IMG/VR virus record: IMGVR_UViG_3300032288_005212 | Location: 1-64,000 of that record | Length of the DNA: 64,000 nt | Reading direction: 5' to 3' (one strand) | DNA from: an uncultured virus (IMG/VR IMGVR_UViG_3300032288_005212) | Taxonomy: Duplodnaviria; Heunggongvirae; Uroviricota; Caudoviricetes | Shown here: positions 14,617 to 45,300 of the stretch, one piece after another | How positions within the stretch are numbered: the stretch's first letter is position 1 | Layout: each line of letters begins with the position of its first letter | Position numbers and translations under genes: made by a program | Notes under the pieces: model-generated | Seen by the model: the letters and a program-made list of their open reading frames with translations, nothing else | Databases searched by the model: none | What the model was told of the DNA's origin: nothing

Positions 14617-14992
14617 AGACTACCTCGTTTACCCAAGTATCAAATTCACTGGAATTTTGGACTAGAATTTCCGCCTGATCGGCATCATATGGAAGAATAG
14701 TGTCTGGGTCATTGGATCCAAGATCTACTAGAAGAAGATCCTCGAGATACTTCAACTTCAATCCTTTCCAACTTTTGATGGTAGCTTCGGAAAACTCTCG
14801 AATAAATTTTTCTTCATTCAGAATTTCTTCAGGTTGGCGCGTCTTACGATCAAACTTAGTTTGTACACAACGCTTTCGAAGGGCGATTAATTCTTTTCTT
14901 GATAGGTTTGCAACTTGTACTTCAAACCCAGGGCAGCCAGGAAACTCAATCCATGCAGTTTTCGTGTCTACCATTAAATCTTGTAACTTCAT
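14561..14992 (-). CDS. Tail assembly chaperone (gpG-like)
   Basis: Position between tail tube and TMP; T5-like IKSWKGLKL and FDTWVNEVVFDLANF motifs. Confidence 0.8.
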   Translation of the reverse strand: MKLQDLMVDTKTAWIEFPGCPGFEVQVANLSRKELIALRKRCVQTKFDRKTRQPEEILNEEKFIREFSEATIKSWKGLKLKYLEDLLLVDLGSNDPDTILPYDADQAEILVQNSSEFDTWVNEVVFDLANFRRGTKRASVEED

Positions 14993-15016
14993 AATTTCTC
15001 CTATTTCAGTTAGACA

Positions 15017-15049
15017 AAAAGTCGGAGGAGAAAATCTCCCCCGACTTTT
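15017..15049 (-). terminator. Intrinsic terminator-like hairpin downstream of tail tube gene
   Basis: AAAAGTCGGAGGAG-AAAAT-CTCCCCGACTTTT inverted repeat with U-tracts. Confidence 0.6.
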
Positions 15050-15052
15050 GAC

Positions 15053-15081
15053 ATTATACCTAACACCAAGTTCTTTGTCAA
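15053..15081 (-). promoter_or_regulatory. sigma70 promoter for chaperone/TMP operon
   Basis: TTGACA-17-TATAAT on the minus strand with an A-tract upstream. Confidence 0.8.
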
Positions 15082-30003: not shown

Positions 30004-30034
30004 CCTAGGGCCAAGATGCGAATCATTCTCATTT
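30004..30034. repeat. CCTAGG-N4-Fur-like palindrome, copy 1
   Basis: CCTAGG gcca AGATGCGAATCATTCTCATTT. Confidence 0.85.
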
Positions 30035-30161
30035 AGGCCTGGTCCGCGCCGATTTTACCACACTAAAATATGCGCTGTCAATACCTCAAGAATGTGAACA
30101 AATACCATTGCAATTCGAGTCTTCCTCTGTCATACTGATCCCACCAGATAGAGGAAAACAT

Positions 30162-31036
30162 ATGTCACACGTAGCCTTTGAACTTCGCAACGAACGCAGC
30201 AACATAGACTGGGCCGTATATATCGACGGCAAACACTGGAAAACCTTTCCGGGCGATCGCCACCTTGCAGAATACAAGGTCAAGGAAATGTGCAAGCGGA
30301 AGACCGCCGAGACTGGCCGTCGTTGGGATGTGGTCGCTGTCCACTGGTAATATTACCGCTTGACGGCGAGCGATTGATCCGCCATACTGTGCCCATGTTC
30401 AACGGAGATCAGACAATGCAAAACGAAATCCGCGCTGCACAATTCCAAGCCGCACAAGCCAGCTTGGCCGCCTTTGACTGCTACCGCACTGCGAAGCGTG
30501 AGATCATCAAGGGAGATCGCCAGATCGGCCAGCTCTGGAGCCGGTGGGGCGATATGCTGATGGCGATCAACGCGAAGGCGAACGATGACATTCGTTTTCT
30601 GGAATGGGCGCAAAGCATGGAAGAAGCCTACGTTGACGGGTACTATGGGGAGTGATTATGAGAATCGGAAAACTGCCGAACCGCGGCATAGTTGACAAAC
30701 TACTAGTAATAGTTCAAGGCCTGGCAACAGTGGCGGATGGCCTAATCATGATCGGCAGCTTCGGATTCTATGGTTCGATGATGTCGATGGATATTTCACG
30801 GTATCGTGCATGGCGCATGATTCAGAGAGGCAGAAAAAATGCAGTGTGAACACCAGTTCAAACCCGGAAAGATTGTAATCGGCACGCCAACAAATGGTAG
30901 CAGTTACAATCCGAAAATGTGGGGCCGTGGCGAAGGCATCTGGCTCGATGGTCGAAAGGCCAGGCTAGTTCCATGCGAAAAGTGTGCCAAGTGTGGTAAG
31001 ACTCTTGTAGACCATAATTTGTACTACGGCTGGTAA
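30162..31036 (+). CDS. Four small pre-early ORFs (30162-30350, 30416-30655, 30652-30849, 30839-31036)
   Basis: SD sequences, coupled overlaps, own promoters at 30108-30136 and 30360-30388. Confidence 0.55.
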
Positions 31037-31039
31037 ATC

Positions 31040-31055
31040 TGGCACGCGTCTTGCA
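31040..31055 (+). promoter_or_regulatory. sigma54 -24/-12 box
   Basis: TGGCAC-GCGTC-TTGCA. Confidence 0.7.
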
Positions 31056-31064
31056 GGGCGAGGC

Positions 31065-31095
31065 CCTAGGTAGTTGTTGCGAATTATTCTCATTT
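31065..31095. repeat. CCTAGG-N4-Fur-like palindrome, copy 2
   Basis: CCTAGG tagt TGTTGCGAATTATTCTCATTT. Confidence 0.85.
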
Positions 31096-31236
31096 AGCGC
31101 GCTTGACAAAAAGGCGCGCTTCGCGCCAACGCGTGCAAAATCAAGAGTAAATTTTATGTACTAAGTCACAAATAATTCTTGACTCCTGGGATTGTCAGTC
31201 TGTATAATGGCGACTTCAGCAATGGAGATCGAAACG

Positions 31237-31461
31237 ATGCATCACTACACTGAAACTCTGGAATCTGGCAACTGGCTCATCGAACTCAGCCCGACCACTG
31301 AATACGGGTATTTTGAGAATCAAAAAACCGGCAGCGGTGGCGGCCTTTGGTTTGAAGGAAACGAGCTGGTAGACTATGATGGTGTTCTGTCGCTGCCAGT
31401 AGCAGTTGCAAGCGCGCTCACTGGCGCTGGATATGTACTCGGAGAGGAGTTTTTTGCGTGA
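31237..31461 (+). CDS. Hypothetical phage protein
   Basis: GGAG SD; YGYFE....G.GGLWF....LVDYDGV motif; promoter TTGACT-18-TATAAT at 31179-31208. Confidence 0.6.
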   Translation: MHHYTETLESGNWLIELSPTTEYGYFENQKTGSGGGLWFEGNELVDYDGVLSLPVAVASALTGAGYVLGEEFFA

Positions 31462-31859
31462 AACTGGTTATCAGTAAAAAGTTCCCGAGAGCCGTTCGGA
31501 GAATAATCCGAGCGGCTATCGCTGCAAGTAATGCACACGCTCCGATGAACGTGAGAACTCTTATTGTAAAACCTACAAAAGGTCACGATTATCACGGACT
31601 AGCGAAAGAAAACGAAGGTGTGGCGATTATTGAAATCTGCCATACTGAGCCCGATTATCTCGATACTGTATTTCATGAATGCTACCATATTTATCAATAC
31701 TCGCAGGGTATTGTAAAATCAGAATATAATGGATTTAAATGGCGCGGTGTTTATATTCCGCTGTTTCTTTACAATATGTTTCATTCGTTTGTGCCTTTTG
31801 AAATATCAGCAAAGGCATATGCTAAGAAAATGTGCAAAAAGGTGGAGGCATTGCAATGA
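31458..31859 (+). CDS. Zincin-like metallopeptidase
   Basis: TVFHECYHIYQ (HExxH)...PFEISA. Confidence 0.7.
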   Translation: MKLVISKKFPRAVRRIIRAAIAASNAHAPMNVRTLIVKPTKGHDYHGLAKENEGVAIIEICHTEPDYLDTVFHECYHIYQYSQGIVKSEYNGFKWRGVYIPLFLYNMFHSFVPFEISAKAYAKKMCKKVEALQ

Positions 31860-32065
31860 TTCGAATTACTGCAGCATATGGGCGCAATTACTATTCCGCT
31901 GAAATTGTGCGTCAAGATTGGGAAAGCGATAAAGACTTTCGAATGATTGACGGCGGCGGATATATTAATCGCTCCGATTGGCTAAAATATAATAAAGGGT
32001 TGGATAGCATTGTGTTTTCTAATGGTGTGGTATTAATGCACCTTGAGCATGGTGTACTTCCATGA
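31856..32065 (+). CDS. Hypothetical protein
   Basis: GGAGG SD; AYGRNY.S...DW...KDF motif. Confidence 0.55.
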   Translation: MIRITAAYGRNYYSAEIVRQDWESDKDFRMIDGGGYINRSDWLKYNKGLDSIVFSNGVVLMHLEHGVLP

Positions 32066-32073
32066 TGGAGGTA

Positions 32074-32107
32074 CCTAGGTGCCAAATGAGAATAATTCTC
32101 ATTTGGC
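32074..32107. repeat. CCTAGG-N4-Fur-like palindrome, copy 3 (perfect 13-1-13)
   Basis: CCTAGG t GCCAAATGAGAAT-A-ATTCTCATTTGGC. Confidence 0.9.
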
Positions 32108-32210
32108 TGTCACTGCGCCAAATAGCGTGCAAAATCAAGAGTAAAAATTCACACTTGAACCTGGGCGGTGAGATGCTATACTGCTCAAGTCTAAACCGGA
32201 GAGCCAAACC

Positions 32211-33535
32211 ATGATGACTCGCTCGCAACACGCCGAACTCGCCGCAGAAGTCGCTGAGGCCGTAGTAAAGCCCACGCAAACCGTCGGGCAGGTGGCAGAG
32301 CATATTTTTAATGCGGCTGAAGTCATGCGGAACATTATGCTTGATTCCGCAAACATGACGCAGCAGGAACTGCACGGGCATATCCAGTTTGCAACCGAAT
32401 TGCAACGTGCATATGTACGTCGCGCAACTATGCTGGGGATACTCTGATGCTGTATAATCTCGGCACACTGGTAATGCTTTTTACTGGCATACTAGTCTCG
32501 GGGTATGTTGCTATAAAAATGCTCGAACACTACTTTGGAGAGTAAAACATGAATTTTTCGATGACGATTGAGAATGCTACGGTTTCGACTGTCGTTCGGA
32601 ACGAATACGAAATTATTCGGCATATCGAAGCCTGCTTTCTCGCGGCTGGATATGACTCCGATACTTTTGCTGAGTATCTGGCACACTATCTGGAGCTTTA
32701 TCATGAGATGACGGTACTTCCGGAAAAAGAGTACACGCAGGCGCTCGCCGAAGCTCGGGAGGAAGCCTATGATGAAGGTTTCGATGATGCTACTGCCGAA
32801 AAAAAGGAAGAGGCAGAATATGCCTGCAATTGCCCGATGTGCAAAGATCCCGTCGCCTATGATGCGGGCTGGAATGATGGATTCCAAGGCGAAGAAAATC
32901 TCGACGAAGATATGGCAAAAATTCCCGCCTATATGGTAGGATACGAGAATGGAAAGATCGACCGAGAAAAAGGCCGCTACAATGGCGAAGCAATCTGAGG
33001 AGTAATGATATGATCATCACGCGTATGTCGATTTTCTCTGGCAAGATTCACTCTTGGGATATTCCGGTAACGGAAGAGCAGATCGATCGCTGGCAGCGCG
33101 GTTGTCTGATTCAGAATGCGATGCCGCACTTGACTGCGGATCAGCGAGAGTTTATTATGACGGGCACCACTCCTGATGAGTGGAATCAAATGTTTGGGGA
33201 GGATGCAGCCTAATGCACGCTTTTCAAATGAACTACGGTACAGTGGATATGGGAATGAATAAATATACACGGGCCGCGATTGCTTTGGGCGCTACCGTCG
33301 AGGACGGTATAAACTGGACGTGGGCAAATCATTTTGCCACGCGAGAGCTGGCTCAGGAATTTATCAATATGTTTCCTGAGATGGAAACACGCGGCATCTA
33401 TACTGATAGCCCGGGCTTTTCTGTGAGGTTTCGATGAAAAATCCTGTAGCAAAGTTTAGCCGCCAGGTCAACCGATCGGCGGTTCAGCGGGATCGTAAAA
33501 AAGCCGCAAAGCGCGGATATAGGAAACACAAATGA
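32211..33535 (+). CDS. Five small pre-early ORFs (32211-32447, 32549-32998 acidic, 33010-33213, 33213-33437, 33434-33535 basic MKNPVAK...RKHK peptide)
   Basis: GGAG SDs, coupled stops/starts; 33010 ORF has the IQNAMPHLTADQREFIMTG phage motif. Confidence 0.6.
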
Positions 33536-33867
33536 GAAACACAAAAAACTATCTTGCACTCGGGCACGATATTGAAGAAAACTTTTTCTTTATAAAGATT
33601 GGGTTATCTGATGACCCCGAAGAACGTGTATCTAAACTCAGAATGAAACTGCTACACGTTTGGGAAAACATATGGATATCTGATGGCGACTACTCTTGCA
33701 CAGTAGAAGCTTTTTTCTTAAAAACTATGGGTTACTCTCATTATACTTATAGTAACCATAAATTTTCAGGGTCATCCGATTGCATTGGAAGATTTAAAAC
33801 AAAAGAAGAAGCTTTATTCATTGGCAGGCAAATGGTAAAGTTTATTTTATCCCTTCAATATGACTAG
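33532..33867 (+). CDS. GIY-YIG / T5orf172-like protein
   Basis: FIKIGLSDDPEERV..L motif; AT-rich relative to flanks. Confidence 0.55.
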   Translation: MRNTKNYLALGHDIEENFFFIKIGLSDDPEERVSKLRMKLLHVWENIWISDGDYSCTVEAFFLKTMGYSHYTYSNHKFSGSSDCIGRFKTKEEALFIGRQMVKFILSLQYD

Positions 33868-33878
33868 GGCAGAAGGCC

Positions 33879-33934
33879 CGATGCGACCCATTCGCATCGG
33901 CGACCTAGGTCGTTGTTGAGAATCATTCTTATTT
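33879..33934. repeat. Double Fur-like boxes flanking one CCTAGG (copies 4 and 5)
   Basis: CGATGCGACCCATTCGCATCG-N4-CCTAGG-N4-TGTTGAGAATCATTCTTATTT. Confidence 0.8.
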
Positions 33935-33949
33935 CCGCGCGGAGCGCCA

Positions 33950-33978
33950 ATTATAGCGTGCAAAATCAACGGCGTCAA
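33950..33978 (-). promoter_or_regulatory. Leftward sigma70 promoter with GC-rich discriminator
   Basis: TTGACG-17-TATAAT-TGGCGC. Confidence 0.75.
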
Positions 33979-34009
33979 GTGTAAATGTGTGTAATATTGC
34001 ACAAACTCC

Positions 34010-34040
34010 AAATGAGTCTGGTTCTCATCTCGCACCTAGG
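34010..34040. repeat. Fur-like box-N4-CCTAGG, copy 6 (inverted)
   Basis: AAATGAGTCTGGTTCTCATCT cgca CCTAGG. Confidence 0.75.
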
Positions 34041-34267
34041 GCGCGCCCCTGGCGCTTGTCAATAGGAAATATTTCACATTCCTGGGGGTGGATCTGCGGG
34101 CGGGGAGGCCTCATAATAGCGGCTTCTGGTGAGGGTTCACCGGAAACCGAAAGGGGAAGTCAATGGCAATATTCACACAAATTCGGAATGCGCTGCGGTC
34201 ATTCTTTCGGGTACAATGTGAAACATCGGTGGGGCAGTGTGCTTCACCCAAATCGGAGAGTAAAACT

Positions 34268-34579
34268 ATGTCGCTCTACACTGAGTCGATGGTGTCGGAA
34301 CTGATGGCTCGCGCGAGCTGGTCGTATGATGACGCGGTTGCGTTCGCTGAGAAGCATTCCAGCGTGTCGGTACGTTCGGTTATCAGCAAAATCAAGTCTC
34401 TGAAGCTGGACTACACCGCGAAGCCGAAAGCTGCGACGGCGAAGACTGACAAGGTGCGGAAGTCGGAGATCGTGGGCGAGATCGCACTCGCGCTCGGTAT
34501 TCAGGCTGACGCAATCTCGGGCCTTGCCAAGGCTGACGCCGCTTGCCTTCGCGTTCTTCTGGCGAAGGTTGCGGGCTAA
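34268..34579 (+). CDS. T5 A2-like small DNA-binding protein, paralog 1
   Basis: YT..M......SVRSVISKIKSL.LDY...VRK.EIV.EIA...I.GL.KAD resembles T5 A2/D3-type proteins; GGAG SD. Confidence 0.65.
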   Translation: MSLYTESMVSELMARASWSYDDAVAFAEKHSSVSVRSVISKIKSLKLDYTAKPKAATAKTDKVRKSEIVGEIALALGIQADAISGLAKADAACLRVLLAKVAG

Positions 34580-34779
34580 TGGTTCGGGTCGCTGCCATCT
34601 TGGGAACCGGGGCAATGTGCATTGCCCCCTTTTTCATCGACACGCTTCCTGGCAAATTGTGTGCCATATGCGGCCTGTTACTTTTGACAATACAGGCACT
34701 TGATCTGCGCGCTTACAATCTGGTACTCTTAAATCTGGTCGGCATTGCTGGCTACACTTTTTCAAGCATGGGAGCCTAG
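34579..34779 (+). CDS. Small membrane protein
   Basis: Hydrophobic; TAATG coupling. Confidence 0.55.
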   Translation: MVRVAAILGTGAMCIAPFFIDTLPGKLCAICGLLLLTIQALDLRAYNLVLLNLVGIAGYTFSSMGA

Positions 34780-34782
34780 AAT

Positions 34783-35259
34783 ATGTACCGCTCGATTTTT
34801 GATCTCGATGGGACTGTAATCGATTCCACACACCGCCACGCTACGCTGCCTGATGGGTCGCTTGATCTGGCACATTGGATTGAAAATTCCACGCCTGAGA
34901 AAATCGCTGCGGACTCTTTGCTGCCGCTTGCCGATTATATGCGGATGTTCTTCCCGCATCACGAGGTGCTGGTATGCACTGCCCGCGTGATGGGGGAAGC
35001 CGATTACGAATTTTTGTTCGATAACGGATTGCAGGCTGATGCGATTCTTTCGCGCCCTGCTGGCAACCGTCTGCCGGATGGGTTCCTTAAGGAAATGCTG
35101 CTGCGCGATCATGCAACACGCCGCGGCCTTACTTGGGTGGAATTTGTAAAAAATACCACGATCTTCGATGACAACGCTTCTGTGCTTGACACGCTCGGAC
35201 GGGTTGGAATTCGGACGATCTGCGCCCGCACTCTTAACCGGGTGCTGGCGGAGGACTGA
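34783..35259 (+). CDS. HAD-superfamily phosphatase (possible nucleotidase, T5 Dmp analogue)
   Basis: FDLDGTVIDS motif I, VCTAR motif II, K and FDDN motifs III/IV. Confidence 0.8.
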   Translation: MYRSIFDLDGTVIDSTHRHATLPDGSLDLAHWIENSTPEKIAADSLLPLADYMRMFFPHHEVLVCTARVMGEADYEFLFDNGLQADAILSRPAGNRLPDGFLKEMLLRDHATRRGLTWVEFVKNTTIFDDNASVLDTLGRVGIRTICARTLNRVLAED

Positions 35260-35270
35260 CACCGACCAGG

Positions 35271-35307
35271 TGCTGCGAATGGTTCTCATTCGCATTGCCG
35301 CCCTAGG
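35271..35307. repeat. Fur-like hexamer array-N4-CCTAGG, copy 7 (inverted)
   Basis: TGCTGCGAATGGTTCTCATTCGCATTG ccgc CCTAGG. Confidence 0.75.
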
Positions 35308-35405
35308 TCGCCGACCTGGGCGTGTCAATAGGAAATAATACCGCTTAACTGGGATGTGCATCATGGTATACTCCACGTCCCAACTACTGCTCGGGAGAGC
35401 ATTTC

Positions 35406-36125
35406 ATGGCTAAAAAGCAATTCTATCTGATCATCGATACCGAAACGACAATCGATGAAAAAGTCGCAGATTTCGGTGCCGTTATCGTTGATCGGAAAGG
35501 CCGCATTGCTGCCCAATGTGGAATTCTCATTAATGGCATTTACAATGATCGGGAAAACCATCCGCTCTTTTATAATGAATACTCGGGCGACCTTTGGAAA
35601 AAGTCGAGCCTTGATAAGCGATATAATAACTATTCGGCAATGCTCGCCAACGGTTCCCGTATGCTCGCATCAATTCCTGCGATTAATACTTGGCTCGCAA
35701 AAGCGGCAAACAAGTTTAATCCCACACTGACCGCATATAATCTGGCATTCGATCTCGGTAAATGCGTCAATACTGGAATTGATCTTTCCTATTTCGAGAA
35801 TCGGTTTTGCCTTTGGCACGCTGCATTTAATAAATGGGCGCATACTAAAAACTATCGCAATTTCGCTCTACAAATGCACGCTTTTAATGCTCCGACTAAA
35901 TTGCAAAATATGTCGTTTAAAACGAATGCGGAAACAATGGCACGTTTTATTACTAATTCGCCCGATATGCCTGATGAACCGCATACCGCACTCGAAGACG
36001 CAATCTATTATGAATTGCCAATTCTGAAACGATTAATCGAAACGACAGAGCGTAATGTATTTATGAATCCCGAGCCTTTTGACTGGCGCAAGGTTCAGGT
36101 CAAAGATTGGTTTACCGCTAAATAG
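35406..36125 (+). CDS. DEDDh 3'-5' exonuclease
   Basis: IIDTET, AYNLAFD and EPHTALEDA motifs. Confidence 0.9.
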   Translation: MAKKQFYLIIDTETTIDEKVADFGAVIVDRKGRIAAQCGILINGIYNDRENHPLFYNEYSGDLWKKSSLDKRYNNYSAMLANGSRMLASIPAINTWLAKAANKFNPTLTAYNLAFDLGKCVNTGIDLSYFENRFCLWHAAFNKWAHTKNYRNFALQMHAFNAPTKLQNMSFKTNAETMARFITNSPDMPDEPHTALEDAIYYELPILKRLIETTERNVFMNPEPFDWRKVQVKDWFTAK

Positions 36126-36233
36126 GTGACATATGACAGAATTGGAAACTTTGAAAATGCGAATGGAAATTATTCGGACGGTTTGTCCGATTCTTTCCCT
36201 CATCCTTCAATTGATAATTCTGGGGCGTTTGAT

Positions 36234-36644
36234 ATGAAAATATCTAAATCCTTTCGCAATTCGCAACGCAAAATAATCGAGGCGGCTGTTAAAAATAGCC
36301 GCCTTGATTTGAATCTGCCCGATCTGCGCGATATTAAAGTAAAATCGAATAAATCAAAATCGCTCGACGGTTGGGCTGATGTTTCAAATGGGTATGCGGT
36401 AATTTCAATTAATCGCCGATTAAAAGGCGCGGAATTGTTTTGCTGCGTTGCACATGAAATGGTACACGTTAGCCAATTACTATCCGGCCGCCTTGTAACT
36501 GCCGCTCCGAATCTTTTTATCTGGAATGGAAAGGTTACGCGATTAACGGAGGAAAAAATGGCTAAAATGAATCCCGCAAAATATCGGGCATTGCCTTGGG
36601 AGCGGGAAGCATATTATTATGGCGATTCTTTTTTGGGAGATTAA
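36234..36644 (+). CDS. Zincin-like metallopeptidase (paralog of 31458)
   Basis: VAHEMVHVSQ...Y..LPWEREAY. Confidence 0.75.
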   Translation: MKISKSFRNSQRKIIEAAVKNSRLDLNLPDLRDIKVKSNKSKSLDGWADVSNGYAVISINRRLKGAELFCCVAHEMVHVSQLLSGRLVTAAPNLFIWNGKVTRLTEEKMAKMNPAKYRALPWEREAYYYGDSFLGD

Positions 36645-36647
36645 AAC

Positions 36648-36794
36648 ATGGGACCGTGGCTTGTTTTGTTTGTCGGTTTGATTTATTTAATTATTGCGGC
36701 GGATTTTGCCTTTCGGAATAATAACTGGTGGATGGCATCCGTTTATTTTGGATATGCGTTTGCCAATGTGGGGCTTTTTCAAATAGGGAAATAA
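36648..36794 (+). CDS. Small 2-TM protein (48 aa)
   Basis: Hand translation MGPWLVLFVGLIYL...FGYAFANVGL; GGAG SD. Confidence 0.55.
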   Translation: MGPWLVLFVGLIYLIIAADFAFRNNNWWMASVYFGYAFANVGLFQIGK

Positions 36795-36822
36795 TACCGC
36801 TTGACGCCAGGAGGGCGCGGGC

Positions 36823-36853
36823 CCTAGGTAGATGATGCGAATCATTCTCATCT
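36823..36853. repeat. CCTAGG-N4-Fur-like palindrome, copy 8
   Basis: CCTAGG taga TGATGCGAATCATTCTCATCT. Confidence 0.85.
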
Positions 36854-38033: not shown

Positions 38034-38061
38034 GAGAAGCTCCTTCGAAGGGAGAAAAAGT

Positions 38062-38090
38062 AAAGGGAAGCTTAGTTGCTTCCCTTTTTT
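38062..38090. terminator. Bidirectional-looking intrinsic terminator
   Basis: AAAGGGAAGC-TTAGTT-GCTTCCCTTTTTTT. Confidence 0.8.
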
Positions 38091-38094
38091 ATTA

Positions 38095-38468
38095 GTCCAT
38101 GAAAGTCGCATTAGTGTAAAAGTTACAGGCAAAATTAGCCCCTTCAGTAGAAGCAAGCCAAGTAGTTATTTAACGAAGATTAACTACTTGGCAATTGATT
38201 TAAACAAGTCAATGTTAAGAATACGCTGCTTAGAGTTAGTTCTTAATGTTCTATTTGATTTAGTTACAGTCGAAAAAAGATTAAACGACGAAGAACAATA
38301 AGTTGTGTCATTCACGGGACCGGGAGTCAAACTCCACCCTGAAACAGGGTACCCTCCGTGTGACCCGGTCCCGTTATAGGACACTAACTATTGTAACTTC
38401 TACTGTATAATTTTTTTCTCCGTCGGATTAGAACAATAAGAAGTTTCTGTTTTAGCTTCTCAAAAACA
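38095..38468. other. Non-coding, stem-loop-rich segment (injection-stop-signal-like DNA or ncRNA)
   Basis: 12-bp perfect stem at 38157-38192, multibranch stem at 38300-38390, long-range pairings; leftward promoter at 38475-38503. Confidence 0.5.
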
Positions 38469-38553
38469 TGAGATATAATATCATTTCGAGAGCAAAAAGT
38501 CAAGAACTTTTTTTCTGATGTATGACAATAAAAAAGGGCCTTCAAAGAGACCC

Positions 38554-38985
38554 TTATTCAACAACCTCATACACTGGTTCTACATAGTCAGCGCACTTCG
38601 GCGCAATCTTAGGAAAGTCGGGAGGATTATTCACTACCCTTTTCTCTCTTTCTGCAGGCTCATTCGGGCCAAGTGCAATTTCTGGAAACAGTTCTAATTG
38701 AATGGGCGAAGGCCCATAGCTGATATGTCGAAAGTATTTAATCGGCTTAGAACCAAATGGATGCTCTAAAGTTTCAGGAAATATATCAGGCTGAAGTACA
38801 TAATATGCAATTCTTTCAGGATATGTCCATCTAGTCCAATTTCCAAGCTCCGGAAAGTTTCTACGAACCCAGGAAGTAGATACTTCAGCTTCTTTCAATC
38901 CACCTCGATATAGTTTCTCAACTATTTCTGCTTGCTCAACAGTCCATGTATCATAAATTCTTTTAATAATATTCAAAACGACCAC
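38554..38985 (-). CDS. Hypothetical protein
   Basis: 143-aa ORF with GGAG SD and downstream terminator-like hairpin. Confidence 0.55.
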   Translation of the reverse strand: MVVLNIIKRIYDTWTVEQAEIVEKLYRGGLKEAEVSTSWVRRNFPELGNWTRWTYPERIAYYVLQPDIFPETLEHPFGSKPIKYFRHISYGPSPIQLELFPEIALGPNEPAEREKRVVNNPPDFPKIAPKCADYVEPVYEVVE

Positions 38986-39096
38986 TCCGCTTCATATGTA
39001 TATTTTAAAAAAGAAAACTGCAACGTAAAAAAGAAAATTCCCGTTAGCTTTTCATATTGTACTACAACAGTGGGAATTAAATATATTTTACCGCTC

Positions 39097-39309
39097 TTAA
39101 CTCGTCTTCGATACAGCAAACTTTTCTGCACCCGAAATGCCCAGACCCGCGATCGTAATGTACATAACGCCTTCAAAAATGAATTTTTCGACATTGTAAC
39201 CTCCAAAAAGGTTTGCTAGAAACCCGATACAAATAAGTACAGAACAAGCAAAAGTAACCAAACGCTTCGAAGAAAGGTGCCCATCATTATCTTGAAAAAA
39301 CCCATTCAT
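39097..39309 (-). CDS. Small 2-TM membrane protein (holin-like family)
   Basis: LSSKRLVTF...AGLGISGAEKF motif. Confidence 0.55.
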   Translation of the reverse strand: MNGFFQDNDGHLSSKRLVTFACSVLICIGFLANLFGGYNVEKFIFEGVMYITIAGLGISGAEKFAVSKTS

Positions 39310-39566
39310 CTCCGTCTCCTTTTTAGCGTTGCTCGATTCGTACGTTTGTTATACTTGTACGAACTAGCAGAACGCCCTGATGCTTTTCCGGCGCGCGCCT
39401 TCGCGCGAGCAGCGGGAGTCATCGCATTTCTCTTCTTTCCTTTCGCAGTGAGCTTTGTTCCTCGCAGAACACCAGCTTTATTTAAAAAAGCGTAAGCTGC
39501 GCTCTTGGCGTTTTTCACGCCTTTGGCACGAAGTTGCCTCGTTAATCTCTCGACTATGGCAGGCAT
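39306..39566 (-). CDS. Highly basic K/R/A-rich protein
   Basis: 86 aa with almost no acidic residues. Confidence 0.65.
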   Translation of the reverse strand: MPAIVERLTRQLRAKGVKNAKSAAYAFLNKAGVLRGTKLTAKGKKRNAMTPAARAKARAGKASGRSASSYKYNKRTNRATLKRRRR

Positions 39567-39650
39567 TTATTTCTTCTTTTTCTTACGCTTTTTTTCTTCT
39601 TTATGAGGTTTGCCTTCGTCGTGACGCTCTTTTCTCTTTTTACCGGCCAT
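39567..39650 (-). CDS. 27-aa Lys-rich peptide
   Basis: MAGKKRKERHDEGKPHKEEKKRKKKKK; AGGAG SD; stop abuts next ATG. Confidence 0.55.
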   Translation of the reverse strand: MAGKKRKERHDEGKPHKEEKKRKKKKK

Positions 39651-39685
39651 TCTAATTCTCCTTCGCTTTGGCTTTTATTAGCCAC

Positions 39686-40186
39686 AAAAAAAGCCTCACG
39701 AAGAGGCTTGAAGATGAAATCTTCCGAGGATGCGAGGGGGGAACAGCCTAAGTGTGGTCTTACGTTCGCCCCCCTCGCTGGGGAAAAGGGGAGAGGTTTC
39801 TAACGAACCACCTCTCTAAAACGTGTTGCCTAGGACTGTAATGGAATACACTAGGACTGTCCATCAGAAGAAATTAGATAACCCATCTTCTTTCTTCCTA
39901 CGGCCTCGAGGGCGCTGCTTTTTTGATACGGAAAGTTGTAAACCGGCGTTTTTTCAAAACTGCAAAAATAAGACAGTTCACGCAATGTCAATTCGGCGTT
40001 TATACAAAACTGCAAAAGGAACAAGGGATTTCTGTTCAATTGTATCTCCGTCGAGATAGCACCCTGGTATGAGTTAAAATATAAGGCGAATATCCGGTTT
40101 AATATTCATTAATCTTTTATCTCTTAACTGGAAGAGGCCCTAACAACCTTTTTAACTCAATTCGAACTCCCTTTCTCTCACAACAT
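39686..40186 (-). ncRNA. Candidate ~500-nt structured non-coding RNA
   Basis: Promoter TTGACT-17-TATAAT (40193-40221), terminator AAGCCTC-TTCGT-GAGGCTTTTTTT (39686-39709), no credible ORF, about 10 hairpins. Confidence 0.6.
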
Positions 40187-40259
40187 GGGAATATTATAAG
40201 GGTTGGGAGTTCAAAAGTCAAGAACTTTTTTTGGCCTGGTGACTTGAAAATTAAAAGAG

Positions 40260-40970
40260 TTAACTCCTTGTATTTTTAAGAAAAAGCCGATCACTCTTCT
40301 CTCCTTCAATAACATTTTCAACTACAAAACTTTCAAGAAGTTTCTCTACTCCGTTGTTTACACCTCTTCGACTATCAAATATAATTATAGCATTTTTAGC
40401 TGCATTATTCTTGATAAAAGAAATATATTCATCACAGGGGTAATGAAACCCCATTGAAAGAAGTGAAAGAAACAGTGTAAATTCAAATTTTGGAACTTCT
40501 TCCTTTTGAGGATTGCAGATTCTTACATTTGCATTTACATTACTTAAAATAAAAGATTTAGTACTTTCCAGGTTTGCATAGCCTGCTCCTTTTGAAGCAA
40601 AACCATGGTTACGATTATCAGTATCTTCTACATCAATTAGTACAATTTCAGAAGTAAGTTCTTCTGTAAGAAGAAGTAGTTCGATTATTCCATTGCCTGG
40701 ACCAATCGAAACTATTTTATTTAAACATTCTTTATTAAGAAATGCTTTTAGCTCCTTTACTTCAGTACTAATTTCTGAGACAAGTTCTTGAATATAAGAT
40801 TTAGTAAGATTATTATTATTTAAAAAATTTACAATACCTTGTTTATCTCCATAATTAAACCAGTTATGAAGAGCAGCACCACCGCCAAGGCGTAAAAAAG
40901 ACCCAGTTCTTTGAATAACTAGATCAGCTAGAAACTCTGGATTGACCGGCAGTTTTATTTCCGACAGCAT
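40260..40970 (-). CDS. Class I SAM-dependent methyltransferase
   Basis: IVSIGPGNG, LIDVE and SLLSMGFHYP motifs. Confidence 0.7.
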   Translation of the reverse strand: MLSEIKLPVNPEFLADLVIQRTGSFLRLGGGAALHNWFNYGDKQGIVNFLNNNNLTKSYIQELVSEISTEVKELKAFLNKECLNKIVSIGPGNGIIELLLLTEELTSEIVLIDVEDTDNRNHGFASKGAGYANLESTKSFILSNVNANVRICNPQKEEVPKFEFTLFLSLLSMGFHYPCDEYISFIKNNAAKNAIIIFDSRRGVNNGVEKLLESFVVENVIEGEKSDRLFLKNTRS

Positions 40971-42383: not shown

Positions 42384-45300
42384 TTACTCTCCATGATCCA
42401 CCTCAAAACAAATATCCGTTTTGTCCAGATAGATACGAGTAACCACTTTATTTACATCAGGAAGCATAGTTCCAACAGCAATAAAAGGGCCGCCAGAAGG
42501 ATCTACAAAACCGAGTTCGTTGTAGTTGACAGTTTCTTGTCCTTCCTTACCGCCAAAACGAAAGTAGCTACCACCCTTCATTACATAATGGTCACCTTCA
42601 GCATCAAAGGTAATTATTTCGCCATAACGATTTCGCATACATTCTCTCCCGTAAAGAAGATATTATAAGGCTTTTTTAGTTGCAAGTCAAGAACTATTTT
42701 TCCCACCACTCGTAGACAGAGTTTGCAGTACGAAAACGCACATAATTTCTCACTTCGAGCAGTATCTCTTCAATTGGCGAAGTCTGCCAGGCAAGGTTTT
42801 TTCCAATTGAAAGAGGGCCTACTCGCATACAGACCCCCACTCGAGGACTTGCGTGATATTGAATACACTCCTCTCGATTTTCGTACCATATAGCAGCAGA
42901 AAGCGGGCCACTAGAGCCCGCTCCATCACCAACCCTCTTCAGAAAGTAGGCCATCTTTCCACTCCTGAAACTGACGAGGAGACATATAGAACTCCAGTAC
43001 AGTTTCAAGTGCCGCAAGAAGTCGATGGTCGTTCTCTTTTATTACGTCATCATAGGCTTGAGCAAGCTCATTTCGAATAAGAGTAGCAATTTGCTCGTGC
43101 TCAATATCAATTTCAAATTTCATAGTGAACTCCAGTGTGAAAAGAAAAAATTAGCAATAATAAAAAGATTAGTAATCACTGATTGAACAATGAGAAAAGT
43201 ACGAATCCAAGCAACTTTATCTGCTTCGGAATCGCTACCTACTTTCTCTCCGAGAGCTTTTGCCCACAGTGACCACATTTTCATTCTTCGTCTTCGACTA
43301 CAAAGTGAATTTCAGAACCTAACGCAGCTTGAAAAGCTGACTCAATATATGCCGTATCTTCGACATATTCCCAGCTATCATCCTTTTCAATATGCTTGAT
43401 CCACTCTCCATCAGGACCACGCTCAAAAGTTCCGTTTTCTGTTTCCATCGTGTAAAAACGTCTTTCATAAATTGCAGTAATCATATATGCTCCCACCACT
43501 CGTATATTGAGTTGCTTGTTCGAAATCGAACGTAGTTTTCAGACTCTTCGAGAATCTCTGTAATCAGAGATGTTTGCCACCAATCCTGGTAACTATAGGT
43601 TCGTCCACCAATTGAACCCACTCGCATAGCAACGCCCACTACGGGGCGCGCTCCATGAGAGAGCTTAACTTGTCCATTTTCTAACCAAAGTGCAAGAGAC
43701 ATTCCACCACTGTCGCCAGCCCCATCACTTTCTCGTCGAAGATTATACATTCTGTTCCTCTATACTATTGTGCAGGTCAAGATAGCCTGCGCACTGTGCT
43801 TGAGCATATGCTTCTGGCCCAAAGCCAAAGGTATCATACAGCACGCCACGATAAGTTCGATTTTCAACTAGTTCTGCTTTATGTATTCTTCGTACAACTG
43901 CACAAAATGCTTTTAGTTGATCCTCTTTTGAAAGAGAATTCCAAAATTCCTCTTGTTCTGCTTCTAGTGACTCCATTGCTTCCTTAAAGATTTTACTAAA
44001 TTCTTCCAAAGCTTCAAGCATGATTGTCGCACCTCGTTTTGAGCCAACCACCTTTTACGAAATTTTGCCCAGGTGATCCACAGATTTCACAAACATTATT
44101 GCTCATGCACTCTGCCATTCCAATCGCACCTTCGATGAATTCGTCAGCATAATGAGAATAAACTCGAAGTCCACCAAACTTTTCTTTGATTTGAACAACT
44201 TCGAATACGCCATCAAGCGGAGTGCGAGCTACATGACAATTAATCGTATGCAAAAGATTTTTAATCAAAGAATGCCATCCTTTTCCTACTGCAAAAATGC
44301 AATCATGTGATAGAATATCTTCATATTTTTCTCGAAGATCGTTCATTTTTTCTTTTCCCACGCCCAGTTATCTGTTGCCCAATCAAGTATACAATCATTA
44401 AATGAATACTCTCCGTCCCCATACTTTCGGCACATCGCCTTATGCCAGAATGGAAAATAGTCACGACGAATATCTTCTTCGGTGACAGTTACAATATGAC
44501 CATCACCATATTCATCGTATGCGTCATATTGAAAATATCTCATTCGTCACCATCCCATTCAATACCGTTATTATAACACCATTCTTTAATAATGTCAATG
44601 CTTTTTTGCGCCTGGGCCTCTTCTGCATCCCAAGTTTCTTGAGTGTAGTTATCTCCGCCACAACCACAGTCACAGCCAAAACGCACAGCCATACGAGTAG
44701 GACTCCAGAGAGCTTGCTCGTAGTTTGAAAACATATACTTGAGTTCAGAAAATTTCATTTCTTTTTTGCAGCCTTATTTGCCTATTTAAGTCTTCCCAAA
44801 GATTGATAGCTTCTTCTCGCGTATCTGCAGTTATATTTATACCACATTCATCATCCAAGTCAGGACATCGAATAGTCCAACACCAGTTCGACTGGGGAGC
44901 TTCTGCGTTTGAAATATAAGTTTTGGTTCCATCTTCTTCAAGAACCCATGCTTCGCCAGTAGGCTCTGGCTTAAATATAGTACCACATACAGGACATTTC
45001 ATTTTTTAACTCCAAAGTGTTCCTTTATCTCATCACCAATAATATCAAGACCGTAGTCATCTACATGAACATCAATACATTCCTGAATAATCAACTGTAC
45101 GAAATATTCAAGCTCATCATCAGTAAACACCCAAGCAGGAGCAGAGATGTTCTCTACAATGGCTTCCAGAGCCAGGTCTCTAATTCGTATATTCATGCTA
45201 GTCTCTCATCCAAGGTCTTGGAGCATACGCTGCCATCATTATTTCACGCATTAGCATATTTTCTTTTCGCAACTCTTCCACTTCTTTTTTCAGAGCTGCG

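What the first reader, a model, noticed from the sequence alone, without database searches (positions are those of the whole stretch)
39686..40221. Stand-alone ~500-nt structured non-coding transcription unit
Seen: a consensus promoter (TTGACT-17-TATAAT, 40193-40221, minus) and a clean terminator (39686-39709) enclose about 500 nt with no credible ORF. Stems include GCGAGGGGGG/CCCCCCTCGC (39732-39778), GAGAGGT/ACCTCTC (39791-39816), GAAGAAA..AGAT/ATCT..TTTCTTC (39867-39897), TATCTC/GAGATA, GAACA/TGTTC, and a long GAGTTAAAA/TTTTAACTC enclosing smaller hairpins (40071-40158). Internal direct repeats are CTAGGACTGT x2 and CGGCGTTT....CAAAACTGCAAAA x2 (39944, 39994). I do not recognise tmRNA, RNase P or intron hallmarks. 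Inference: a large phage ncRNA of unknown class. The repeated motifs suggest a protein sponge or scaffold, and two extremely basic proteins encoded immediately downstream could be partners.
Basis: partly seen in the sequence, partly recalled or inferred. Interest (0 to 1): 0.75.

Follow-up and report, generated by a model that had tools for sequence, protein, structure and literature searches.

The report
ORF-free early transcript/leader in T5-like phage
An uncultured T5-like phage has a strong promoter and a terminator enclosing about 500 bases with no gene, but no related copy could be found, so it is best read as a long untranslated leader or orphan RNA of unproven function.

Summary
A near-consensus sigma-70 promoter (40221-40193, minus strand) and an intrinsic terminator (39709-39686) enclose about 500 nt.

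Three parts of the interpretation do not hold up:
- **Not stand-alone.** The upstream operon runs into the unit without a terminator. The four genes downstream have no promoter of their own, so they can only be transcribed by read-through.
- **Not unusually structured.** Its folding z-score (-2.4 to -3.1) lies within the range of coding windows of the same genome.
- **Not conserved.** No homologue turned up in about 1.5 Mb of related loci, two complete relatives, 50 further relative records, pattern scans or covariance-model searches. Covariation could therefore not be tested.

The basic-protein gene has no such RNA upstream in 16 relatives, which argues against an obligate RNA-protein pair.

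My best reading (about 0.4) is a long untranslated leader. Its terminator throttles a promoter-less operon of small basic proteins and releases a roughly 0.5-kb RNA as a by-product. Rival readings are a trans-acting orphan RNA, a dead moron and a DNA-level site. This scan also noted the same stretch from another window of this genome.

The parts
40193..40233 (-). Early-type sigma-70 promoter: A-tract 40233-40225, -35 TTGACT 40221-40216, 17-nt spacer, -10 TATAAT 40198-40193. The transcription start is predicted near 40186.
   Evidence: 11 of 12 matches. Its 5' half matches seven or more other promoter sites in the same genome, and the same promoter family occurs in relatives G001, G011 and G014.
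40152..40173 (-). Shine-Dalgarno-like AAAGGGAG (40174-40167), 6 nt, then TTG AGT TAA (40160-40152). It sits where sister promoters have the start codon of a real gene, so it is either a two-codon start-stop or the stump of a lost ORF.
   Evidence: Read from the sequence. Most sister promoters outside the pre-early island are followed by a ribosome-binding site and the start of a real ORF within about 10-50 nt.
40070..40159 (-). 5' domain: a perfect 10-bp long-range stem (40159-40150 / 40079-40070) enclosing hairpins 40136-40121 and 40107-40088.
   Evidence: I3; pairing probability 0.90-0.99.
40019..40058 (-). Two small hairpins: UAUCUC/GAGAUA and GAACAG/UUGUUC.
   Evidence: pairing probability 0.86-0.87.
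39994..40017 (-). Copy 1 of the 24-nt motif TTTTGCAGTTTTG-N-A-N-AAACGCCG, followed 2 nt later by TTGACA.
   Evidence: 22 of 24 positions identical to copy 2, flanks unrelated, motif found nowhere else in the 106-kb genome.
39944..39967 (-). Copy 2 of the 24-nt motif, exactly 50 nt downstream of copy 1, followed 1 nt later by TTTACA.
39861..39903 (-). Purine-rich hairpin: GGAAGAAA/UUUCUUCU with an inner AGAUG/UAUCU stem.
   Evidence: I1; pairing probability 0.92-0.98.
39829..39860 (-). Two copies of ACAGTCCTAG, 21 nt apart, predicted to pair with each other through their CTAG cores. The second copy holds the only CCTAGG site in the genome outside the pre-early island.
39791..39816 (-). Hairpin GAGAGGU/ACCUCUC.
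   Evidence: pairing probability 0.98.
39732..39778 (-). Perfect 10-bp hairpin GCGAGGGGGG/CCCCCCUCGC with a 27-nt loop.
   Evidence: I2; pairing probability 0.98.
39686..39724 (-). Small hairpin 39724-39710, then the intrinsic terminator: stem 39709-39703 / 39697-39691 and U-run to 39686.
   Evidence: Without the terminator the best structure is 9.4 kcal/mol weaker.
38534..39663 (-). Operon with no promoter of its own, dependent on read-through: ribosome-binding site AAGGAG 39663-39658; 27-aa lysine-rich ORF 39650-39567; 86-aa basic protein 39566-39306; 70-aa membrane-like ORF 39309-39097; 143-aa ORF 38985-38554; terminator 38555-38534.
   Evidence: Within this stretch there are only weak promoter-like matches, of 9-10 out of 12. 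The next promoter of the family is at 38503.
40260..40970 (-). Upstream 236-aa gene (a conserved family with no assigned function). It ends 27 nt before the A-tract and has no terminator after it.

Best explanation
The stretch is an ORF-free early transcription unit of an uncultured T5-like phage, and it works mainly in cis.

- A strong promoter of the phage's own early family fires into about 495 nt of untranslated RNA.
- That RNA ends at an intrinsic terminator 36 nt before the first start codon of a four-gene operon with no promoter of its own (27-aa and 86-aa basic proteins, a 70-aa membrane-like protein and a 143-aa protein).
- Most transcripts stop there and give an abundant RNA of about 0.5 kb.
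- The fraction that reads through is the only evident source of mRNA for the operon.

The unit therefore acts as a promoter plus a long leader plus a throttle.

Shown from the sequence: the promoter, the terminator, the lack of an ORF and the lack of any other promoter for the operon. Inferred: that the terminator is leaky, that the short RNA accumulates, and what the 24-nt motif pair does.
For: - Promoter and terminator are confirmed.
- The promoter belongs to a family found across the genome, and most members outside the pre-early island are followed by a ribosome-binding site and a real ORF within about 10-50 nt. The family is also present in relatives.
- Between the terminator and the next family promoter at 38503 there are only weak promoter-like matches (9-10 of 12), and none lies upstream of the first two genes. 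Only 36 nt separate the U-run from the first ATG.
- The same order of promoter, terminator, then gene occurs in a short form at 15081-14992 in this genome.
- Promoter and terminator are intact while the body has no ORF. That points to selection on transcription or termination rather than on a protein.
- The architecture is known from lytic phages. ONT-cappable-seq found 42 terminators inside 5'UTRs and 29 ncRNA candidates derived from 5'UTRs by premature termination in Pseudomonas phages (PMC10914365).
Against: - 500 nt is far longer than a throttle needs, so this explanation leaves most of the body unaccounted for.
- No antiterminator is predicted. Forbidding the terminator costs 9.4 kcal/mol and only a 5-bp alternative pairing appears, so regulated attenuation is not supported.
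- None of 16 relatives carrying the basic-protein gene has such a leader.
- There are no RNA data.
- Weak promoters may have escaped the consensus scan.
Confidence: 0.4

Rival explanations
1. A trans-acting orphan ncRNA. The terminated RNA of about 0.5 kb is the functional product. It could be a decoy or scaffold that presents two copies of a 24-nt motif and several hairpins to a host or phage nucleic-acid-binding protein early in infection.
For: - Intact strong promoter and terminator with no ORF.
- The 24-nt motif is 22 of 24 identical between copies while the flanks are at random identity (7/26 and 6/26), which indicates a discrete, constrained site. It is unique in the genome.
- Perfect 10-bp stems are about ten times denser than in the genome overall.
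- The same genome does carry another large RNA gene, a tmRNA-like gene.
Against: - No homologue was found, so no covariation can be shown.
- The folding z-score is not exceptional against this genome's coding windows.
- Each motif copy forms only a weak hairpin on its own, -1.8 to -4.8 kcal/mol.
- GGA motifs are not enriched (about 6 by my own count of the sequence, against roughly 7 expected), so it does not resemble a CsrB-type sponge.
Confidence: 0.25
2. A dead moron. A promoter-gene-terminator cassette whose protein gene has decayed or been partly deleted, leaving a non-functional spacer. The promoter and terminator would be kept because neighbouring genes use them.
For: - The unit has the anatomy of a moron.
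- A canonical ribosome-binding site and start codon sit at the usual distance from the promoter but are followed at once by a stop: TTG AGT TAA.
- In relative G001 the same promoter family drives a mobile HNH endonuclease gene, a kind of gene that often decays.
- The body is found in no relative (calls listed under the trans-acting rival).
- Its folding is unexceptional.
Against: - No fragment in any of the six frames matches Pfam, PHROGs or 1.84 billion protein representatives.
- There is no similarity to the genes that follow the 236-aa homologue in other contigs.
- No residual codon bias remains.
- Decay that complete sits oddly beside a perfect promoter, a perfect terminator and two perfect 10-bp stems.
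- Phage genomes usually delete junk quickly.
Confidence: 0.2
3. A DNA-level element. The two 24-bp direct repeats, 50 bp apart, and the surrounding palindromes would be binding sites on DNA, for example iterons of a transcription-activated origin, or operator or packaging-related sites. The transcript would then be incidental or serve as a primer.
For: - A discrete repeated motif with unrelated flanks, each copy followed by a hexamer resembling a -35 box.
- The only CCTAGG site outside the pre-early island lies here.
- The position is 1.5-2 kb beyond the island that corresponds to the T5 terminal repeat.
Against: - There are only two copies, the spacing is not typical of iterons, and there is no AT-rich unwinding region.
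- The CCTAGG site lacks the Fur-box-like partner seen at the other seven sites.
- The GC-skew profile shows no inflection here.
- The motif gave only two hits of the kind expected by chance in 596 Gb of prokaryotic genomes.
Confidence: 0.1
4. A small protein gene after all: the 62-aa TTG-initiated ORF at 40039-39851 (minus strand), which has GGAG 6 nt upstream of its start.
For: The ORF and a plausible ribosome-binding site exist.
Against: - Its codon score is -0.16, like the spurious ORFs nearby.
- The 24-nt repeats fall in different frames, because 50 is not a multiple of 3.
- There is no real homologue among 1.84 billion representatives. The only hit, P0064, is a low-complexity repeat protein.
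- No Pfam or PHROG match.
- The ribosome-binding site lies inside a predicted hairpin.
Confidence: 0.05

Closest known systems
5'UTR-resident short RNAs made by premature termination in virulent phages (phiKZ, PAK_P3, YuA, LUZ19 and others; ONT-cappable-seq, PMC10914365)
   Same: A promoter is followed by an intrinsic terminator upstream of the first gene. Most transcripts are predicted to stop, and a minority would read through into the operon. The terminated piece contains no ORF.
   Different: Those RNAs are mostly shorter than 250 nt, were seen as RNA on Northern blots, and are conserved within a genus. This one is about 495 nt, has no RNA evidence, and has no detectable relative.
Phage morons (autonomous promoter-ORF-terminator cassettes inserted between genes)
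   Same: Its own sigma-70 promoter and intrinsic terminator, inserted between two co-oriented genes. GC content (0.43) differs from the upstream gene (0.31).
   Different: The defining ORF is missing. Only a two-codon start-stop remains at the expected start position.
Large phage-associated ncRNAs in Rfam (GOLLD, ROOL), and tmRNA, 6S RNA and RNase P RNA
   Same: Size range of several hundred nucleotides, a phage setting, and a multi-hairpin fold.
   Different: No match to any of 4227 Rfam models even at E up to 10. ARAGORN calls nothing at default settings or at 90% thresholds. The real tmRNA-like gene of this phage lies elsewhere, at genome position 75.46-75.83 kb.
Untranslated, repeat-rich region at the right end of the phage T5 left terminal repeat (injection stop signal, with ORF-free DNA up to gene T5.018)
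   Same: ORF-free DNA rich in hairpins and repeats, near the junction between the first-entering island and the leftward early genes.
   Different: Four genes separate the target from the island. The closer positional analogue is the neighbouring ORF-free segment 38055-38503. No sequence similarity to T5 was found.

Membership tests
Any Rfam 15 family (GOLLD, ROOL, OLE, HEARO, raiA, tmRNA, 6S, RNase P, group I/II introns, riboswitches, CRISPR repeats) | Covariance-model score at or above the family's gathering threshold | tested here: not met
   only three tRNAs in the whole window; the best hit on the unit itself is 17 bits against a threshold of 49.5 (anti-hemB; it matches only the terminator region).
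tmRNA | tRNA-like domain plus a tag reading frame, detected by ARAGORN or Rfam | tested here: not met
   nothing at default or 90% thresholds. 'Permuted tmRNA' calls appear only at thresholds of 80% or lower, with implausible tag peptides.
Structured ncRNA in general | Conserved secondary structure with compensatory base changes among homologues | not testable with these tools
   No homologue was retrieved. Closer relatives exist, but their DNA could not be fetched.
Structured ncRNA in general | Folding energy clearly below that of comparable sequence | tested here: inconclusive
   z is -3.1 or -2.4. Four of 25 coding windows of the same genome fold better than -3.1. Perfect 10-bp stems are enriched.
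Transcription-attenuation leader or riboswitch | Intrinsic terminator between the promoter and the first gene of the operon | tested here: met
   the terminator ends 36 nt before the first ATG, and there is no promoter in between.
Transcription-attenuation leader or riboswitch | A competing antiterminator structure of comparable stability | tested here: not met
   the best structure without the terminator is 9.4 kcal/mol weaker. Only a 5-bp pairing to the 5' end replaces the terminator.
5'UTR-derived phage ncRNA by premature termination (PMC10914365) | A short, abundant RNA sharing its 5' end with longer read-through mRNAs | not testable with these tools
The sequence architecture is compatible.
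Moron | Promoter, protein-coding ORF and terminator as one cassette | tested here: not met
   Promoter and terminator are present. There is no credible ORF.
Type III antitoxin RNA (ToxI-like) or CRISPR-like mini-array | Tandem repeats of equal full-length units, next to a toxin or cas gene, or matching known repeats | tested here: not met
   Only a 24-nt core is repeated, and the 26-nt spacers are unrelated. No Rfam CRISPR-repeat or antitoxin hit. The neighbouring genes matched no Pfam, PHROG or NCBIfam family indicating a toxin or cas gene.

The most novel reading that the evidence does not exclude
A lineage-specific early phage RNA of about 0.5 kb in a new class. It would act in trans by presenting two copies of a 24-nt motif, together with a set of stable hairpins, to capture a host or phage nucleic-acid-binding protein as second-step DNA transfer begins in a T5-like infection.
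Probability: 0.15. Interest if true: 0.6.

Novelty: new member of a known kind. Interest (0 to 1): 0.3.

Why it matters
If the RNA is real and abundant, it would add a T5-like example, and an unusually long one, to the recently recognised ORF-less transcription units and premature-termination RNAs of lytic phages. It would also offer a defined 24-nt motif for binding studies.

As it stands it is a single-genome feature with no conservation and no expression data, so it cannot yet carry a claim of a new RNA class. Its practical value is as an annotation point. The basic-protein operon downstream depends on read-through of this terminator. The same phage uses the order promoter, terminator, gene at another site as well.

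Tried and rejected
**Searches for homologues, all negative**
- blastn against 50,697 phage records.
- blastn and nhmmer against 306 related loci, 1.5 Mb in all. These were fetched through the 86-aa, 175-aa, 236-aa, 88-aa and terminase proteins.
- Searches of the whole records of 15 relatives. Only the shared promoter motif matched.
- Exact-pattern scans of viral contigs with the 24-nt motif gave 0 hits. The G6/C6 hairpin pattern gave 1 unrelated hit.
- The motif scan of 596 Gb of prokaryotic contigs gave 2 hits, about the number expected by chance.
- Single-sequence covariance models of the 5' and 3' domains found nothing in G001, G007 and 50 relative records.

**Pseudogene tests, all negative**
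- tblastn of the genes that follow the 236-aa homologue in other contigs.
- All stop-free fragments against Pfam and PHROGs.
- The 84-aa open stretch against 1.84 billion representatives. The only hit, P0064, is a low-complexity repeat protein.
- The 79-aa plus-strand stretch against 5.8 billion proteins.

**Other ideas rejected**
- ARAGORN at relaxed thresholds gave only implausible 'permuted tmRNA' calls.
- The 11-bp inverted repeat spanning the promoter (40215-40205 / 40171-40161) is about what chance would give, by my estimate of about 0.5 expected.
- The lone CCTAGG site has no Fur-box-like partner.

Full report
**What the genome is.** The window is the first 64 kb of a 106,084-bp IMG/VR virus record that CheckV rates complete. 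Its large terminase is 49% identical to those of cultured T5-like Vibrio phages, 69% to the 98-kb uncultured relative G001, and up to 83% to short uncultured contigs. The layout matches phage T5: a GC-richer island of rightward genes at 28-38 kb, followed by leftward early genes and tRNAs. In T5 this corresponds to the terminal repeat, the injection stop region and the leftward early genes. The target lies 1.5-2 kb into the leftward early block.

**The observation.** The scan tool finds TTGACT-17-TATAAT at 40221-40193 (11 of 12 matches) and a terminator at 39709-39691 with a U-run. Read from the sequence, the unit would start near 40186 and end near 39686, about 500 nt.
- Every minus-strand frame has 7-9 stop codons.
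- A codon-usage log-odds model trained on 51 long ORFs of this genome gives positive scores in the coding frame of neighbouring genes. It gives none across 39680-40220.
The two direct repeats are also present.
- Rfam gives nothing at gathering thresholds, and nothing meaningful at E up to 10.

**The promoter is real in context.** Its 5' half (A-tract, GTTC, TTGACT) recurs at seven or more other sites in the genome. A strict scan lists 16 such promoters. Most of those outside the pre-early island are followed by a ribosome-binding site and the start of a real ORF within about 10-50 nt. The same family is present in relatives G001, G011 and G014. At the target, the expected position holds AAAGGGAG, 6 nt, then TTG AGT TAA: a start codon followed almost at once by a stop. 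The first long stem begins there.

**It is not stand-alone.** No terminator separates the upstream 236-aa gene from the promoter, so the operon that starts at 42690 also runs into the unit. The unit's terminator is the first credible one that operon meets; two weak terminator-like matches lie upstream. Downstream, the ribosome-binding site and ATG of a 27-aa lysine-rich ORF follow 36 nt after the U-run. An 86-aa basic protein, a 70-aa membrane-like ORF and a 143-aa ORF come next. The next promoter of the family is at 38503, beyond the terminator at 38555-38534. These four genes can therefore only be transcribed through the target's terminator. The same order of promoter, terminator, gene occurs in short form at 15081-14992.

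**How structured is it?** The minimum free energy is -147.8 kcal/mol, z = -3.1 or -2.4 with my own shuffles. Twenty-five coding windows of 500 nt from the same genome have a median z near -1.3, and four fold better than -3.1. The target is therefore not an outlier. By contrast, the neighbouring ORF-free segment 38055-38470 reaches -6.1 to -7.0. Two perfect 10-bp stems in 500 nt is about ten times the genome-wide density (36 in 106 kb, about 19 expected). That is modest support for local hairpins. No antiterminator is predicted, since removing the terminator costs 9.4 kcal/mol.

**Internal evidence of constraint.** The 24-nt motif occurs twice, 50 nt apart, with 22 of 24 positions identical. 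The 26 nt on either side match only at chance level (6-7 of 26). The motif occurs nowhere else in the genome. This is a discrete repeated site rather than the remnant of a long duplication. Whether it acts as RNA or as DNA is open. Each copy alone folds weakly, and each is followed by a hexamer resembling a -35 box.

**Search for relatives.** None was found. I used blastn and nhmmer on 306 loci (1.5 Mb) obtained through five neighbouring or marker proteins, whole-record searches of relatives, three pattern scans and two covariance models.
- In all 16 loci that carry the basic-protein gene, an ordinary ORF ends within 150 nt upstream of it.
- In contigs that carry the 236-aa gene, other protein genes follow it, and none resembles the target.
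- Closer relatives of the basic protein exist, at 81-88% identity and including genomes of about 100 kb.
- Covariation, the decisive test, could therefore not be run.

**Coding alternatives.** The longest open stretch (84 codons, minus strand) has no real homologue among 1.84 billion representatives. No stop-free fragment matches Pfam or PHROGs. The 79-codon plus-strand stretch has no match at all. The two 24-nt copies fall in different frames.

**Interpretation.** Three things can be read from the sequence. The unit is an ORF-free stretch that is presumably transcribed early. It has selected-looking ends. It is also the obligatory 5' leader of a small basic-protein operon. The best-supported mechanism is therefore cis-acting: promoter, long leader and a leaky terminator that throttles the operon and sheds a roughly 0.5-kb RNA (confidence 0.4). 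This architecture was recently documented in lytic Pseudomonas phages (PMC10914365).

That reading does not explain the length of the body or the motif pair, which keeps other readings open:
- a trans-acting orphan RNA (0.25);
- a dead moron (0.2), supported by the start-stop stump and the lack of any relative;
- a DNA-level site (0.1);
- a small protein (0.05).

**Verdict.** The feature is real and its interpretation is partly supported. It is best filed as a new member of the known kind 'ORF-less, premature-termination transcription units of lytic phages'. Interest is moderate to low until conservation or expression is shown.

Noticed in passing
window 38055-38503 (minus strand): A second ORF-free unit directly downstream of the basic-protein operon. 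It runs from a family promoter at 38503-38475 to a bidirectional terminator at 38087-38062. It folds far better than the target (z -6.1 to -7.0, with three perfect 10-bp or longer stems) and has no Rfam match. It sits where T5 has its injection stop region.
   Followed up: partly
G000 genome 75457-75894 (outside the window; locus L321 1458-1834): The phage carries a tmRNA-like gene next to a tRNA cluster. ARAGORN calls a tmRNA with tag ANDDVYFEDIRLAA. Rfam gives tmRNA_permuted at 93.7 bits (threshold 47) and beta_tmRNA at 63.5 bits (below its threshold of 84). The betaproteobacterial type hints at the host group.
   Followed up: partly
window 14992-15081 (minus strand): A perfect 12-of-12 promoter is followed within a few bases by a terminator-like hairpin with a U-run. 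Only after that come the ribosome-binding site and ATG of the next gene. This is a short version of the promoter, terminator, gene order seen at the target.
   Followed up: partly
window 30004-36828 and 39829: CCTAGG occurs only 8 times in the 106-kb genome, against roughly 13 expected. Seven sites are in the pre-early island next to Fur-box-like palindromes. The eighth is inside the target and has no such partner.
   Followed up: partly
L309 5413-6062 (relative G001, genome 25413-26062): In the 98-kb relative, a promoter of the same family drives a 204-aa HNH-type endonuclease gene with atypical codon usage. It is an example of a mobile promoter-gene cassette in this phage group.
   Followed up: no
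window 39567-39650 and L005 3865-4011: A very short lysine/arginine-rich ORF (27 aa here, 48 aa in G001) abuts or overlaps the start of the conserved 84-86-aa basic protein gene in both phages. This suggests a translationally coupled pair.
   Followed up: no
G000 genome 72000-72500 (outside the window): This 500-nt window, chosen as a coding control, has a folding z-score of -6.9, the strongest of the 25 tested. No Rfam family matched there at E up to 0.01.
   Followed up: partly
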